DNA of 64,000 nt from Escherichia phage vB-Eco-KMB39: the sequence record OR539219.1. The stretch is one strand, 5' to 3'. The position numbers and the translations under genes were made by a program. This document shows, piece after piece, positions 46,360-51,185 of this stretch (its first letter is position 1; each line of letters begins with the position of its first letter). The notes under the pieces are model-generated. The model did no database searches. It had not been told where the DNA came from and was given only the letters and a program-made list of their open reading frames with translations.

Positions 46360-47375
46360 CATTATGTTCAGATAAGGTCGTTAATCTTACCCCGGAATTA
46401 TATCCAGCTGCATGTCACCATGCAGAGCAGACTATATCTCCAACTTGTTAAAGCAAGTTGTCTATCGTTTCGAGTCACTTGACCCTACTCCCAAAAGGGA
46501 TAGTCGTTAGGCATTTATGTAGAACCAATTCCATTTATCAGATTTTACACGATAAGTAACTAATCCAGACGAAATTTTAAAATGTCTAGCTGCATCTGCT
46601 GCACAATCAAAAATAACCCCATCACATGAAATCTTTTTAATATTACTAGGCTTTTTACCTTTCATCTTTTCTGATATTTTAGATTTAGTTATGTCTGAAT
46701 GCTTATGATTAAAGAATGAATTATTTTCACCTGAACGATTTCTGCATTTACTACAAGTATAAGCAGAAGTTTGTATGCGAACACCGCACTTACAAAACTT
46801 ATGGGTTTCTGGATTCCAACGTCCGTTTTTACTTCCGGGTTTACTGTAAAGAGCTTTCCGACCATCAGATCCAAGTTTAAGCATCTTAGCTTTAACAGTT
46901 TCAGAACGTTTCTTAATAATTTCTTCTTTTAATGGATGCGTAGAACATGTATCACCAAACGTTGCATCAGCAATATTGTATCCATTAATTTTAGAATTAA
47001 GCTCTTTAATCCAAAAATTTTCTCGTTCAATAATCAAATCTTTCTCATATGGAATTTCTTCCAAAATAGAACATTCAAACACATTACCATGTTTGTTAAA
47101 AGACCTCTGAAGTTTTATAGAAGAATGGCATCCTTTTTCTAAATCTTTAAAATGCCTCTTCCATCTCTTTTCAAAATCTTTAGCACTTCCTACATATACT
47201 TTATTGTTTAAAGTATTTTTAATCTGATAAATTCCGCTTTTCATAAATACCTCTTTAAATATAGAAGTATTTATTAAAGGGCAGTCCTACAATTTAGCAC
47301 GGGATTGTCTACTAGAGAGGTTCCCCGTTTAGATAGATTACAAGTATAAGTCACCTTATACTCAGGCCTCAATTA
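46360..47375 (-). ncRNA. group I self-splicing intron in td (1016 nt)
   Basis: 5' splice site ...UUGGGU|UAAUUGAGGCCUGAGUAUAAGGUG; 3' end ...AUG|CUACCG; splicing restores a continuous thymidylate synthase frame; carries the I-TevI ORF. Confidence 0.9.
46507..47244 (-). CDS. intron-encoded GIY-YIG homing endonuclease I-TevI
   Basis: 245 aa; GIYQIKNTLNNKVYVGS GIY-YIG module, Zn finger and C-terminal DNA-binding domain; lies wholly inside the td intron. Confidence 0.9.
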   Translation of the reverse strand: MKSGIYQIKNTLNNKVYVGSAKDFEKRWKRHFKDLEKGCHSSIKLQRSFNKHGNVFECSILEEIPYEKDLIIERENFWIKELNSKINGYNIADATFGDTCSTHPLKEEIIKKRSETVKAKMLKLGSDGRKALYSKPGSKNGRWNPETHKFCKCGVRIQTSAYTCSKCRNRSGENNSFFNHKHSDITKSKISEKMKGKKPSNIKKISCDGVIFDCAADAARHFKISSGLVTYRVKSDKWNWFYINA

Positions 47376-47924
47376 ACCCAAGAAAACATCTACTGATCGT
47401 TGATACCACTGCAAATCCAAATAGCCATTACGCACATTAAACTGATAGAACATATGACAAGGCGGTAATGCCATTTGCTTGAGTTCAGCTGGATTCCATG
47501 CTGAAACAACTTGACGTCTATCATTTGGCAGTTTTTTAATACGATCAATAACTTCTACAATTTGGTCTACACCGCCAAAATCACGCCATTGTTTTCCATA
47601 AATTGGACCAAGTTCACCGCTATGGTATCCTAAATCTTTTGCTTGATTTTCGTAATTTTCATCCCAGACTGTTTTGCCTTGAATTAATGAATCATGCTGA
47701 ATTAATCGTAAATCATTTACGTTAGTACTTCCTGACAAAAACCATATTAGCTCAGCAATACAAGCTTTCCAGGCGAGCTTCTTAGTCGTTACTGCAGGAA
47801 AACCTTTAGTTAAATCCCAGCGTAATTTAGTACCGAACAAAGCAATTGTTCCTGTGCCTGTTCGGTCATCGGTTTCATAGCCATTTTCAAAAATGTCTTT
47901 AATTAAATCTTGGTATTGTTTCAT
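47376..47924 (-). CDS. td: thymidylate synthase, exon 1
   Basis: MKQYQDLIKDIFENGYETDDRTGTGT...; frame reaches intron-borne UAA directly after 5' splice site. Confidence 0.9.
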
Positions 47925-47969
47925 TTAGTACCTTATATAAATTATAATACATTTTATGAAGCTAAATAA

Positions 47970-48320
47970 TCAATACGGTTTAGCATCAAATTTTCTTTCA
48001 ATTTCAGGCGTGAAATACAATTCTTTACCGCGTTTGGAAAAGCGACCAATAATATGATAATTATTCTCATCAAACGTAATATTGCCAATATCCATAGCTT
48101 TCAACCAAATATCGATATTTCTATCCAGTTTTATATCAAAATTCCAATACGGAGAACTATTACCGAAAATACTGCAAGCGGATTCAGTGCAATAACTGCT
48201 GCTATAAATCTTGTCTTTGGGAACTACTAATTGATAGACGCCTTTGATAAACTGAGGACCCTGCCATTTTGGTTGTTTCGCGTCTTTTTCTAATAGAATA
48301 GGATAATAATTAAAGTTCAT
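47970..48320 (-). CDS. hypothetical protein inserted between frd and td
   Basis: 116 aa from ATG 48320 (GTG at 48332 gives 120 aa); no recognisable motif; T4 frd and td overlap in my recollection. Confidence 0.5.
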   Translation of the reverse strand: MNFNYYPILLEKDAKQPKWQGPQFIKGVYQLVVPKDKIYSSSYCTESACSIFGNSSPYWNFDIKLDRNIDIWLKAMDIGNITFDENNYHIIGRFSKRGKELYFTPEIERKFDAKPY

Positions 48321-48340
48321 ATTTTCCGCCACGCGTTATT

Positions 48341-48928
<588 letters not shown>

Positions 48929-49171
48929 TCAAAACCCCCTTTCAATAAACCATTCAGTGGCTTTATTAGCGTCAAAGAATAATTCTTCATATGTCTTTTC
49001 TTTGTTTTCAAAGACTGTCACACAAACACGTTGGCATTCTCCACAGTATTCTTCTGACATACGCAAAGCATCAGAAAACATTTCATTAAATTCATTTAAA
49101 TCAGGATTATACAATGCGTTAAAAATTGCATAATCGAATTCATCATTCATAAATTCAAATACAAAAATCAT
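48929..49171 (-). CDS. hypothetical protein
   Basis: 80 aa; CGEC pair. Confidence 0.45.
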   Translation of the reverse strand: MIFVFEFMNDEFDYAIFNALYNPDLNEFNEMFSDALRMSEEYCGECQRVCVTVFENKEKTYEELFFDANKATEWFIERGF

Positions 49172-49181
49172 ATTATTTTCC

Positions 49182-49424
49182 TTAAACAGACTTTTTCACA
49201 ATTTTCCAATCAGCTTTAAACTGTTCAACGTCAGAGTGGTAAATCCAGAATCCTGCGCTTTCTCCATCCTCATAAAGAGGGCATCCATCGCATTCATCTT
49301 CCCATCCCATGTCACGTAAAAGATGTTCAGCTTTTTCAACAAGTTCAGAATCTTTACCTATGATATTAAAATACCATTTACCTCTAACTTCTGAATCTTT
49401 AATGCTCTGGCGTTGTAATCTCAT
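49182..49424 (-). CDS. hypothetical protein
   Basis: 80 aa; early-type promoter upstream. Confidence 0.45.
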   Translation of the reverse strand: MRLQRQSIKDSEVRGKWYFNIIGKDSELVEKAEHLLRDMGWEDECDGCPLYEDGESAGFWIYHSDVEQFKADWKIVKKSV

Positions 49425-49449
49425 TTTATTCTCCTTAGTTGATAGGGTA

Positions 49450-49479
49450 ATAGTATCACACTACTACCCTACTGTAAAC
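49450..49479 (-). promoter_or_regulatory. T4-type early promoter (GTTTAC, TGaTACTAT)
   Basis: Motif upstream of ORF 49182-49424; -10 flanked by TAGGGTA / TACCCTA. Confidence 0.55.
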
Positions 49480-49859
49480 TACTTTTTGAAAGTTTTTCGC
49501 AAAAGTTCAATGATTTCATCTACATTGTTTTCGTCTACAATGCAGTGAATTTTTGTTACGCCAGAAATCTTGTCTTCGACTTCATCTTCTTCAGAAGTCG
49601 GTTCTTTATACTCACGAAAACAATGAAATTCGTCTTCACAAATTTCTAAAAGTCTATCTTTGAGGTAAAAATGCTTTCCATTTGCGCATTCAATGTGTTT
49701 TACTGCTTTATATCCATTAGCGACAGAAACTTCTTTAACTTCAAACCATCCGCCATTATCTCGAATAGCTTTAACTATTGATGAATTAGAACGTGGGCTA
49801 TAATTAATAAATGTATCAATAAGTCTTGGAACAAGTTCATACTTTCTACCAGTATACAT
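49479..49859 (-). CDS. hypothetical protein
   Basis: 126 aa ORF. Confidence 0.45.
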   Translation of the reverse strand: MYTGRKYELVPRLIDTFINYSPRSNSSIVKAIRDNGGWFEVKEVSVANGYKAVKHIECANGKHFYLKDRLLEICEDEFHCFREYKEPTSEEDEVEDKISGVTKIHCIVDENNVDEIIELLRKTFKK

Positions 49860-49878
49860 TGTGTTTTCCTCATTTTAA

Positions 49879-49895
49879 CGGGGCTGTAATAGCCC
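49879..49895 (-). terminator. hairpin after ORF 49904-50134
   Basis: GGGGCT-GTAAT-AGCCCC. Confidence 0.4.
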
Positions 49896-49903
49896 CTTGA
49901 TAA

Positions 49904-50134
49904 TTATTGTTCAATCAGTCCCATATAAAATTCTGCATCTTCAGAATCCATGCCATCACAATATTCATTAGCCATAAAGCGGGTGAGGTCTTCAAGAGGA
50001 CCTTCAATGACAATAGAAAAATTGCAATAATTGGGATCATCATGAATACTTGTGATACTAAGTTCAGGATAACGATTACGAATAATTTCTTCAATATATT
50101 CAAAATCAACGATGTCAATATCAACTTTAGCCAT
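49904..50134 (-). CDS. hypothetical protein
   Basis: 76 aa; early-type promoter upstream, hairpin after stop. Confidence 0.45.
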
Positions 50135-50178
50135 ATTATTTTCCTCTTTTAATCATCAGCAGTATTGCCGATAGTTGT

Positions 50179-50208
50179 ATAGTACCATGGAATGACAAGA
50201 ATGTAAAC
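50179..50208 (-). promoter_or_regulatory. T4-type early promoter (GTTTAC, TGgTACTAT)
   Basis: Motif upstream of ORF 49904-50134, downstream of gene 32 terminator. Confidence 0.55.
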
Positions 50209-50238
50209 TGTTTTGTGAAAAAATTTTAAAATAAAAAA

Positions 50239-50257
50239 GGGGACCTCTAGGGTCCCC
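50239..50257 (-). terminator. rho-independent terminator after gene 32
   Basis: - strand GGGGACC-CTAGA-GGTCCCC followed by TTTTTTATTTT. Confidence 0.7.
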
Positions 50258-50279
50258 AATTAATTAGTAATATAATCTA

Positions 50280-51185
50280 TTAAAGGTCATTCAAAAGGTC
50301 ATCCAGGTCCGTGTCATCAGCACCAGATGAACTGCCAGAGATTGAGCTCATAAAATCATCTTCAGTTTTTGGTTTGAAGTCATCAACATTGAATGCATCC
50401 AAATCATCAGCAACTTTATCAGCTTTCTTAGCAGCAGTTGCAGCGGCACCGCCCATCACAGCAGTTCCCATAACTTGACCGAATTTAGTGCTCAGTTCTT
50501 CAAATGATTTGAATTTATCTTTAGAAGTCATTTCAGAAAGGTCAACCATTTGTTCGAACAGTTCTTTCTGGAAAGATTCATCATCAATGTTTGGAATCGC
50601 AGATTGATTCAGGAATTTAGATTCGTCGTAGTTACTAAAACCAGAAACTTGTTTAACTTTCAGTACAAAGTTAGCACCTTCCCACGGACAAGTTACATCA
50701 ACCGGAGTTTCACCCATTTCAACATCAACTGCAATCATTGCATTGATTTTATCCCAGATTTTCTTACCGAAACGGTATTTAAATACTTTACCTTCATTTT
50801 CTGGAGCAGCTGGGTCTTTTACTACAAGAATGTTAGCCCAGTAAGAAGTTTTACGTTTAACAAGACCGTACTCTTTATTGTCAGTGTTATACAAATCATT
50901 TTTACTGATGTATTGACATACTGGGCAAGAATCGTAATCACCGTGGGTAGATGAACATGTTTCAATATACCATTTACCATTTTTCTTGAAACCGTGATTT
51001 ACAAGAATTGCGAATGGTGCTTGTTCATCATTTTTAGACGGAAGAAAACGAATTACTGCTTGACCGTTACCCGCATTATCGAGTTTCAGTTTCCACTCGC
51101 CTTTATCTTCAGAAGAAAAACCTTTATTGCCATTCAGTTTAGCCATTTGTGCAGCAAGTTCAGCAGTAGATTTACGTTTAAACAT
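50280..51185 (-). CDS. 32: single-stranded DNA-binding protein gp32
   Basis: 301 aa, [50 protein letters not shown]...; acidic C-terminus; classic UUAAA-repeat operator upstream. Confidence 0.95.

What the first reader, a model, noticed from the sequence alone, without database searches (positions are those of the whole stretch)
47970..48332. Unknown ORF inserted between frd and td
In T4 the dihydrofolate reductase and thymidylate synthase genes overlap directly, as I recall from the published frd/td overlap. Here frd ends at 48341 and td starts at 47924, with a same-strand ORF of 116 codons (ATG 48320; 120 from GTG 48332) wedged between them. Its product (MNFNYYPILLEKDAKQPKWQGPQFIKGVY...YCTESACSIFGNSSPYWNF...) carries no motif I recognise. 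Tight packing inside a nucleotide-metabolism operon suggests expressed cargo.
Basis: partly seen in the sequence, partly recalled or inferred. Interest (0 to 1): 0.6.

Follow-up and report, generated by a model that had tools for sequence, protein, structure and literature searches.

The report
Known T-even orphan gene after frd
This is a real, strongly conserved small gene that most T4-like phages, though not T4 itself, carry between their dihydrofolate reductase and thymidylate synthase genes; databases already list it as a hypothetical protein and its function is still unknown.

Summary
A 116-codon ORF (ATG 48320, stop 47970-47972, minus strand) lies between frd (48341-48925) and td (start 47924). 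T4 has no such ORF: its frd and td overlap by ATGA. The ORF is not new. It is RB32ORF229c, called "td.1" in a T2H record, and belongs to PHROG 1928. It occurs at 90% identity or more in about 360 phage records, including T2, T6, RB3, RB14 and RB51.

Distant homologs sit directly after frd in at least four other Tevenvirinae genera, often next to a tandem paralog and a 68-aa gene (PHROG 9550). Among close relatives the junction is polymorphic: empty (T4, RB69), this ORF, or the 68-aa gene. Three RB69-type phages acquired the ORF horizontally, so "inserted" is partly right.

dN/dS is 0.01-0.05, as low as in td, so it codes for a protein. No Pfam, NCBIfam, PADLOC or PDB match exists. AlphaFold gives a confident small beta-rich domain with OB-like topology, but no fold match is significant. 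The family signature is W…GxFxKxG.

My best guess is an accessory ligand-binding protein, possibly binding nucleic acid, made together with DHFR. Interest is low to moderate.

The parts
47970..48320 (-). Coding sequence of the 116-aa protein, stop codon included. It is the RB32ORF229c / T2H 'td.1' gene, PHROG 1928, short subfamily ('A').
   Evidence: ORF. PHROG 1928 at E=1.2e-33. 100% identical to phages SP1, 132 and FL33 and 97% to T2. dN/dS 0.01-0.05.
48325..48330 (-). GGCGGA, a Shine-Dalgarno-like sequence 4 nt upstream of the ATG.
   Evidence: Read from the sequence. The same TGGCGGAAAATATG is kept in T2, AdolfPortmann and JoYop. Function is inferred.
48339..48347 (-). Left copy of the 9-bp direct repeat TAAATGAAA. 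It contains the frd stop TGA and a vestigial td-like start, ATG AAA TAA.
   Evidence: Sequence. Identical to the T4 and RB69 frd/td junction TAAATGAAA. RB32 annotation note 'flanked by 9 bp repeat'.
47919..47927 (-). Right copy of the 9-bp direct repeat TAAATGAAA. It contains the td start codon, ATG at 47924.
   Evidence: Sequence. The copies are 420 bp apart. Removing one copy plus the DNA between them reproduces the T4 junction exactly.
47928..47969 (-). Spacer of 42 nt between the ORF and td, with promoter-like hexamers (TTGATT-18-TATTAT / TATAAT).
   Evidence: Consensus scan hit at 47973..47944. The central ~30 nt is missing from the JoYop and NHEP29 versions. No significant RNA structure, z -0.66. 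Promoter function is not shown.
48341..48925 (-). frd (dihydrofolate reductase), the upstream neighbour.
   Evidence: ORF. Annotated as DHFR in identical records.
47376..47924 (-). td exon 1 (thymidylate synthase), the downstream neighbour. The 3' boundary is approximate because a group I intron carrying I-TevI follows.
   Evidence: ORF, where the reading frame runs into the intron. The T4 and RB3 annotations show td split around I-TevI.

Best explanation
The ORF is a genuine protein-coding accessory gene of T4-like phages. It is the RB32ORF229c / td.1 family, PHROG 1928.

Shown: the family is old. It sits immediately downstream of frd across several Tevenvirinae genera, usually overlapping the frd stop. 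It is often followed by a tandem paralog that carries a 20-30 aa insert, and by a 68-aa gene (PHROG 9550), before td. In the T4/RB69/JS98 group the frd-td junction is a small cassette hotspot with three states: empty (T4, RB69; ATGA overlap), this ORF (the window, T2, T6; about 70% of Tequatrovirus), or the 68-aa gene (JS98, fFiEco06; about 25%). All cassettes are bounded by the same short sequence, TAAATGA(A), which is the frd-stop/next-start overlap.

Inferred: recombination at this microhomology, or in the flanking frd and td, both deletes and installs cassettes.

Shown for the product: it is a cytoplasmic single-domain protein of about 105-120 aa. Its confident predicted fold has the order beta1-beta2-(hairpin)-beta3-helix-beta4-beta5, which is OB-like.

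Inferred, with low confidence: the invariant residues W19 (in the beta1-beta2 loop) and G92-x-F94-x-K96-x-G98 (the beta4-beta5 hairpin) form one binding face. The protein is made together with DHFR from the prereplicative frd-td-nrd transcript. It acts by binding a conserved macromolecule, most likely single-stranded nucleic acid and otherwise a conserved phage or host protein. This gives a conditional benefit that T4 and RB69 do without.
For: The gene is real: PHROG 1928 at E=1.2e-33, and dN/dS of 0.01-0.05 against 0.02-0.12 for td and 0.18-0.28 for frd.

Synteny: JD18, S16, EcS1 and Entb_45, and metagenomic contigs L016, L019 and L020. The neighbouring ORFs are identified as PHROG 1928 and PHROG 9550.

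Divergence fits long residence at the locus. Against other genera, Frd is 45-52% identical, this protein 31-47% and Td 76-83%.

Junction states come from a spread sample of 60 of the 514 records that match the T4 junction. Five span 400 bp, 14 span about 606 bp and 38 span about 785-820 bp.

Horizontal gain: NHEP29 has flanks 97% and 94% identical to RB69, yet its ORF is 87% identical to the window's. Synonymous difference (pS) is 0.47-0.53 in the ORF against 0.67-0.78 in the flanks. Only NHEP29, NHEP36 and SF among RB69-type phages carry it.

Signature residues across 48 cluster representatives: W19, G92, K96 and G98 at 100%; G27 and F94 at 97%.

Against: pI across members ranges from 6.1 to 9.4, which is not uniformly basic.

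No expression data were found for any phage carrying the gene.

The direction of change in the window's own lineage is not resolved. It could be insertion with a 9-bp duplication, or ancestral presence with deletion in T4.

One family member (P0014) lies elsewhere in a T4-like contig, next to an RlaP gene near regB, so linkage to frd is not absolute.
Confidence: 0.6

Rival explanations
1. It is an anti-defence or host-takeover accessory protein. A small early protein binds and neutralises a host immunity or metabolic factor. It is kept where that factor is common and lost where it is not.
For: It is dispensable: absent from T4, RB69 and about 30% of Tequatrovirus. Copy number varies and tandem paralogs exist. 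It shows cassette-like gain and loss. It is small, has no known domain and is restricted to phages: only 45 hits among 1.84 billion cluster representatives.
Against: dN/dS of 0.01-0.05 is as low as in thymidylate synthase. That is not what an arms-race protein usually shows, although a conserved target would allow it. No similarity to any characterised inhibitor was found. No experimental link was found in the literature.
Confidence: 0.25
2. It is an accessory subunit or modulator of the phage thymidylate cycle, binding DHFR, thymidylate synthase or the dNTP-synthetase complex. This would explain its fixed place and translational coupling after frd.
For: It is always adjacent to frd and often overlaps the frd stop by 4-20 nt. 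It lies in the gene 32-frd-td-nrdA cluster.
Against: A nearly identical protein (91% aa) works beside very different Frd alleles. The RB69-type Frd is only about 58% identical to the window's. In contig L019, Frd is 47% identical but this protein is 62%. The protein is far more constrained than Frd. T4 and RB69 run the same pathway without it. One member lies away from frd.
Confidence: 0.15
3. It is a selfish mobile gene, a free-standing homing endonuclease, as one GenBank record (AdolfPortmann, bas44_0069) labels it.
For: It shows presence/absence polymorphism at one fixed intergenic site between conserved genes, in a region rich in homing endonucleases such as SegG, I-TevI and MobE. It was gained horizontally in three RB69-type phages.
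Against: No GIY-YIG, HNH, LAGLIDADG or any other Pfam domain appears even at E<=10. It has 116 aa in a single domain with no separate DNA-binding module. Synteny is deep, with tandem paralogs in other genera. No fold match to any nuclease was found.
Confidence: 0.04
4. It is a chance or decaying ORF with no function, a remnant of an insertion.
For: T4 lacks it and no function is known.
Against: The frame is intact in about 360 close records and 217 distant ones. dN/dS is 0.01-0.05 at dS up to about 0.9. Signature residues are invariant across 48 cluster representatives. The predicted fold is confident.
Confidence: 0.01

Closest known systems
RB32ORF229c (YP_803171, phage RB32) = 'td.1' of phage T2H (AY262132.2) = PHROG 1928
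   Same: It is the same gene at the same position, 97% identical in protein sequence to T2 and RB14. It has the same flanking 9-bp repeat that the RB32 annotators noted.
   Different: The window's allele has one extra codon and two substitutions in a low-confidence loop (SSSYCTES against SSCFTES). Here it sits next to an intron-containing td, unlike in T2 and RB32.
PeSL-bounded ORF cassettes of T4-type phages (Arbiol et al. 2010, PMC2839356; Comeau et al. 2014, PMC4122927)
   Same: Small ORFs of unknown function are gained, lost and swapped at fixed sites between closely related T4-type genomes, through short conserved flanking sequences.
   Different: A PeSL is an early promoter plus stem-loop. 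Here the flanks are a 7-9-nt stop/start overlap sequence, TAAATGA(A). Neither spacer folds better than shuffled controls. The site lies inside a conserved nucleotide-metabolism operon, not a hyperplastic region.
OB-fold single-stranded nucleic-acid-binding domains (SSB, RPA, Cdc13/Teb1, S1, cold-shock type)
   Same: The predicted strand and helix order is beta1-beta2-beta3-alpha-beta4-beta5. The conserved aromatic and basic residues (W19, F94, K96, often R93) lie in the beta1-beta2 loop and the beta4-beta5 hairpin, which flank the binding cleft in OB folds.
Free-standing homing endonuclease genes of T-even phages (seg, mob)
   Same: It lies in an intergenic position between conserved genes and is polymorphic among relatives. 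One GenBank record labels it a putative homing endonuclease.
   Different: It has no nuclease motif or domain, is half the usual size or less, and has deep synteny and paralogs.

Membership tests
PHROG 1928 / RB32ORF229c family | Significant full-length match to the family profile | tested here: met
   E=1.2e-33, residues 4-112 against profile positions 2-125 of 126.
PHROG 1928 / RB32ORF229c family | Signature residues W…G-x-F-x-K-x-G (defined here from the family alignment) | tested here: met
   W19, G92, F94, K96 and G98 are present. They are 97-100% conserved across 48 cluster representatives.
PHROG 1928 / RB32ORF229c family | Position immediately downstream of frd and upstream of td | tested here: met
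   One exception among relatives is P0014.
Homing endonucleases (GIY-YIG, HNH, LAGLIDADG and others) | Recognisable nuclease catalytic domain or motif | tested here: not met
   Pfam gives zero families at E<=10 and NCBIfam none. No nuclease appears among the fold matches.
Homing endonucleases (GIY-YIG, HNH, LAGLIDADG and others) | Cleavage of the ORF-less allele and biased inheritance | not testable with these tools
   This needs enzyme assays or phage crosses.
OB-fold nucleic-acid-binding proteins | Five-stranded closed beta-barrel with a helix between strands 3 and 4 | tested here: inconclusive
OB-fold nucleic-acid-binding proteins | Binding of ssDNA, RNA or oligosaccharide on the L12/L45 face | not testable with these tools
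   Only residue conservation at those loops is available.
PeSL mobile regulatory cassettes | Flanking early promoter plus stem-loop terminator motif | tested here: not met
   The spacers fold no better than shuffles, z -0.66 and +1.10. No terminator-like site lies within 47300-50200 apart from the one at 50257..50239.
Known anti-phage defence proteins (PADLOC) | Match to a defence-system protein model | tested here: not met
   No hit for the window protein or for three distant homologs.

The most novel reading that the evidence does not exclude
PHROG 1928 proteins could be a previously unrecognised OB-like family with a specific role tied to thymidylate and DNA-precursor supply. For example, they might tether the DHFR/TS machinery to single-stranded DNA or RNA, or protect that pathway from a host countermeasure. 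Separately, the conserved stop/start overlap TAAATGA at the frd-td junction could act as a dedicated cassette-exchange site, through which T-even phages swap this gene, its paralog and the 68-aa PHROG 9550 gene.
Probability: 0.15. Interest if true: 0.55.

Novelty: already known. Interest (0 to 1): 0.27.

Why it matters
The gene is an ordinary entry in T-even genome annotations, so finding it is not a discovery. The comparison does add three modest points.

1. The textbook frd/td overlap of T4 is the minority state. Most relatives carry one to three small genes there.
2. This orphan gene is under purifying selection as strong as thymidylate synthase, yet it is dispensable in T4 and RB69. That makes it a clean candidate for a conditional function.
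3. The junction behaves as a three-state cassette site bounded by a 7-9-nt microhomology. This gives a tractable natural example of how small ORFs move between diverged T4-like phages.

A deletion in T2 or T6 and a knock-in into T4 are simple experiments that could assign a function.

Tried and rejected
**Domain and sequence searches.** Pfam at E<=10, NCBIfam, PADLOC and a PDB profile search gave nothing meaningful.

**Wider homology.** A word-indexed search and a full HMMER profile search of 1.84 billion cluster representatives found only 45 small single-domain relatives and no informative fusion. P0015, an apparent fusion, lies in a rearranged 100-kb record and was set aside. Three long repeat proteins (P0042, P0049, P0052) match only in short repeated stretches, and I treated them as spurious.

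**Paralogs.** An HMM scan of all 519 window ORFs of at least 40 aa found no second copy.

**Spacers.** RNA structure and PeSL-like elements were not supported.

**Literature.** Searches by gene names, accessions, PHROG ids and 'frd-td' phrases found no functional study. Two T4 mobile-element and genome reviews do not mention the ORF.

**Start codon.** The GTG at 48332 was rejected because it is not conserved and lies inside frd in NHEP29.

**Other annotations.** The labels 'putative glucose-1-phosphate adenylyltransferase' and 'flagellar biosynthesis protein' that some records put on ORFs at this junction have no support in Pfam, NCBIfam or PHROGs for the two ORFs tested.

Full report
**1. The observation**

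The window carries a minus-strand ORF at 47970..48332, 120 aa from GTG. The ATG at 48320 gives 116 aa beginning MNFNYYPILLEKDAKQPKWQ. It lies between frd (48341..48925, 194 aa) and the first exon of td (start 47924). td is interrupted by a group I intron that carries I-TevI (46507..47244). In the T4 reference, frd (145109..145690) and td (ending at 145112) overlap by ATGA and nothing lies between them.

The true start is the ATG at 48320. All relatives begin MNFNYY. In phage NHEP29 this ATG overlaps the frd stop, which puts the GTG position inside frd. A GGCGGA sequence lies 4 nt upstream of the ATG.

**2. It is an already annotated gene**

Megablast of 47900-48400 finds 546 phage records, 358 of them covering at least 80% of the query. 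The region is 100% identical to Escherichia phages vB_EcoM_SP1 and 132. It is 97% identical to T2, RB27, RB32 and many others.
- In RB32 the gene is RB32ORF229c, with the annotators' note 'flanked by 9 bp repeat'.
- T2 records refer to that name.
- The T2H fragment AY262132.2 calls it td.1.
- It belongs to PHROG 1928, function unknown, at E=1.2e-33.
- Over 4 kb the window is closest to phages FL33 and FL34 at 98.7%.

No paper in the searchable library names the gene or the PHROG.

**3. It codes for a protein under strong constraint**

Among six Tequatrovirus or Tequatrovirus-like alleles, pairwise dN/dS is 0.01-0.10 and mostly 0.01-0.05, at dS up to 0.9. In the same genomes the first 381 nt of td give 0.02-0.12 and the last 399 nt of frd give 0.18-0.28. 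The orphan gene is thus as constrained as thymidylate synthase and much more constrained than DHFR.

**4. The family is old and sits at this place in many genera**

tblastn finds 579 records. About 362 are at 90% identity or more, and 217 are below 60%. The distant ones are phages of Klebsiella, Enterobacter, Salmonella, Citrobacter, Serratia, Erwinia and Proteus. In every distant genome examined the homolog lies directly after frd, overlapping its stop:
- JD18 (Jiaodavirus): followed at once by td.
- S16 (Gelderlandvirus) and EcS1 (Kagamiyamavirus): one more ORF before td.
- Entb_45 (Kanagawavirus): two more ORFs before td.

A PHROG scan shows what those extra ORFs are. The next ORF is itself PHROG 1928, at E=1e-33 to 5e-38. 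It is a tandem paralog with a 20-30-residue insert after the invariant Trp. The third ORF of Entb_45 is PHROG 9550, a 68-aa protein.

Metagenomic T4-like contigs repeat the pattern. L016 and L020 have frd-A-B, and L019 has frd-A-B-C-td. Here A is this family's short form, B the paralog and C the 68-aa gene.

Identity to the window fits long co-residence with frd. Frd is 45-52% identical, A 31-47% and Td 76-83%. One member, P0014, lies elsewhere, beside an RlaP gene near regB.

A full HMMER profile search of 1.84 billion cluster representatives finds only 45 relatives. Nearly all are 95-139 aa and single-domain. No second copy exists in the window.

**5. The frd-td junction among close relatives has three states**

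I searched with 400 nt spanning the T4 junction and read a spread sample of 60 of the 514 matching records:

| Span in the record | Count | State | Examples |
|---|---|---|---|
| 400 bp | 5 | Empty, T4-type | T4, G2133, FL18, ECO07P3 |
| about 606 bp | 14 | 68-aa PHROG 9550 gene | fFiEco06 |
| about 785-820 bp | 38 | This ORF | T2, T6 |
| Partial match only | 3 | Not scored | — |

- The 606-bp class carries the 68-aa gene with an ATGA overlap to frd and a TAATG overlap to td.
- That gene is 98.5% identical in JS98 (Dhakavirus). It also occurs in Klebsiella phages and even in Phapecoctavirus.
- RB69 (Mosigvirus) has the empty, overlapped junction.
- The paralog B is not found in Tequatrovirus at all.

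**6. Junction anatomy**

The junction sequences compare as follows:
- T4 and RB69 read …TATAAATGAAACAATACC….
- The window and T2 read …TATAAATGAAATAACGCGTGGCGGAAAATATGAAC…[ORF]…TGATTATTTAGCTTCATAAAATGTATTATAATTTATATAAGGTACTAAATGAAACAATACC….

The window therefore has TAAATGAAA twice, at 48347..48339 and 47927..47919, 420 bp apart. The left copy keeps a vestigial td start, ATG AAA, followed at once by TAA. Removing one repeat plus the intervening DNA gives the T4 sequence exactly.

Other variants exist:
- NHEP29 has the ORF's ATG overlapping the frd TGA (TATAAATGAATTTT) and a 15-nt spacer before td.
- JoYop has lost the frd stop, so frd runs on and overlaps the ORF. It also has the short spacer.
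- The window and T2 spacer holds about 30 extra nt with promoter-like hexamers. Its function is not shown.

Neither spacer folds better than shuffled controls. These are therefore not the promoter-plus-stem-loop PeSL cassettes described for T4-type phages (PMC2839356, PMC4122927).

**7. Insertion does happen**

NHEP29's frd 3' end is 97% identical to RB69's and its td 5' end is 94% identical. Those same flanks are only 64% and 81% identical to the window. Yet its copy of the ORF is 87% identical to the window's. Synonymous difference (pS) is 0.67-0.78 in the flanks, which is saturated, against 0.47-0.53 in the ORF. Only NHEP29, NHEP36 and SF among the RB69-type phages carry it. The many others end frd directly on td.

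The ORF was therefore acquired horizontally into an overlapped junction, with boundaries at TAAATGA(A). For the window's own lineage I cannot tell insertion from deletion. The 9-bp duplication fits insertion into a T4-type junction. The same repeats could equally have mediated the deletion that produced T4. The outgroup synteny shows only that the family as a whole is ancestral at this locus.

**8. What the protein may be**

Pfam, NCBIfam, PADLOC and a PDB profile search give nothing.

AlphaFold2 with a 14-sequence alignment gives pLDDT 82.8 and pTM 0.77 for the window protein. Its elements are strands 6-12, 27-34 and 63-65, helix 69-77, and strands 81-83, 87-97 and 100-105. A 31%-identical Klebsiella-phage homolog gives the same order at pLDDT 88.1 and pTM 0.81. 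This is the OB-fold order, beta1-beta2-beta3-alpha-beta4-beta5, with an added hairpin.

The fold searches do not confirm it:
- The Foldseek PDB list is led by SSB, OBody, CusF, Stn1-Ten1 and RPA, at E of 0.78 or more.
- BFVD returns only uncharacterised proteins of other T4-like phages: PM2, Muldoon, Cronus, phiAS5 and Ah1.

Across 48 cluster representatives, W19, G92, K96 and G98 are invariant, and G27 and F94 are 97% conserved. W19 lies in the beta1-beta2 loop. GRFxKxG forms the beta4-beta5 hairpin. In OB folds these are the two loops that flank the binding cleft. That last statement rests on general knowledge of OB folds and is an inference here.

**9. Mechanism, committed but weakly supported**

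I consider it most likely that this is an accessory binding protein made with DHFR in the prereplicative period. It would bind a conserved macromolecule through the Trp loop and the GRFxKxG hairpin, with single-stranded nucleic acid my first choice.
- The very low dN/dS argues for a conserved target rather than an arms race.
- The same protein beside Frd alleles only 47-58% identical argues against tight co-adaptation with Frd.
- Dispensability in T4 and RB69, paralog expansion and cassette behaviour keep an anti-defence or host-takeover role a serious rival.
- The 'putative homing endonuclease' label in one record has no support.

**10. Verdict**

The gene is already known as an annotated hypothetical ORF, and its function is still open. 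Interest is low to moderate.

Noticed in passing
window 48929..49171 (-): A second small ORF that T4 lacks. It is 80 aa (MIFVFEFMNDEF…), lies between frd.1 and frd, and is RB32ORF231c / PHROG 3183, function unknown. frd is therefore flanked on both sides by genes absent from T4.
   Followed up: partly
L010 499-705 (phage fFiEco06); also L009 2173-2379 and L019 3670-3879: In about a quarter of Tequatrovirus genomes a different 68-aa gene occupies the same frd-td junction. It is PHROG 9550 (MSNKLKVKDVPNAMALF…) and overlaps frd by ATGA and td by TAATG. It is 98.5% identical in JS98 (Dhakavirus). It is the third gene of the frd-A-B-C-td module in other genera, and a 43% relative occurs in Phapecoctavirus. 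Some records call it 'flagellar biosynthesis protein', which the library scans run here do not support.
   Followed up: partly
L007 1809-2159, L008 1814-2185, L009 1817-2176, L019 3332-3673: A tandem paralog of the ORF, also PHROG 1928, follows it in S16, EcS1, Entb_45 and metagenomic contigs. It carries an extra segment of about 20-30 aa (…PTIxEYKxNP…) after the invariant Trp. It is absent from Tequatrovirus.
   Followed up: partly
window 46507..47244 (-) and td 47376..47924 (-): td carries the group I intron with I-TevI. The phages most identical over the ORF (SP1, 132) and T2 and RB32 have an uninterrupted td, so intron and ORF assort independently. The empty-junction phages whose td annotation I read (T4, FL18, ECO07P3) have an intron-split td, and G2133's td annotation is uncertain about its exon boundaries. 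The ORF-less junction, about 550 bp from the I-TevI site, might therefore spread by co-conversion with the intron. PMC2790892 cites co-conversion tracts of up to 2 kb.
   Followed up: no
L012 (phage NHEP29, PQ511150), and NHEP36 and SF: These phages have RB69-type (Mosigvirus) frd and td but a Tequatrovirus-like copy of the ORF. This is a clear case of horizontal cassette transfer between genera. FL18 is filed under Mosigvirus but has a T4-like frd-td junction at 96.5%, another mosaic.
   Followed up: partly
L011 (phage JoYop) 471-560: The frd stop at the repeat is mutated (TATAAAAACGAAATAG…), so DHFR gains about 11 C-terminal residues and overlaps the ORF.
   Followed up: no
L018 3001-3588 (OR941409.1), protein P0015: A 195-aa predicted protein joins an unrelated N-terminal part to the last 36 residues of the Klebsiella-phage homolog. 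It sits in a 100-kb record with fragmented td and nrdA genes. This is probably a rearranged or misassembled genome.
   Followed up: no
L015 1248-1577 (metagenomic contig): One divergent family member is encoded away from frd and td. It lies between a TM2/zinc-ribbon gene and an RlaP (PF10127) gene, a few kb from regB and the ValRS-modifier gene.
   Followed up: no
window 50239..50257 (-): A strong terminator-like hairpin, GGGGACC…GGTCCCC followed by a T-run, lies upstream of the frd.3-frd-td block. It is the only terminator-like site in 47300-50300. This is consistent with one transcription unit running through frd, the ORF and td.
   Followed up: no
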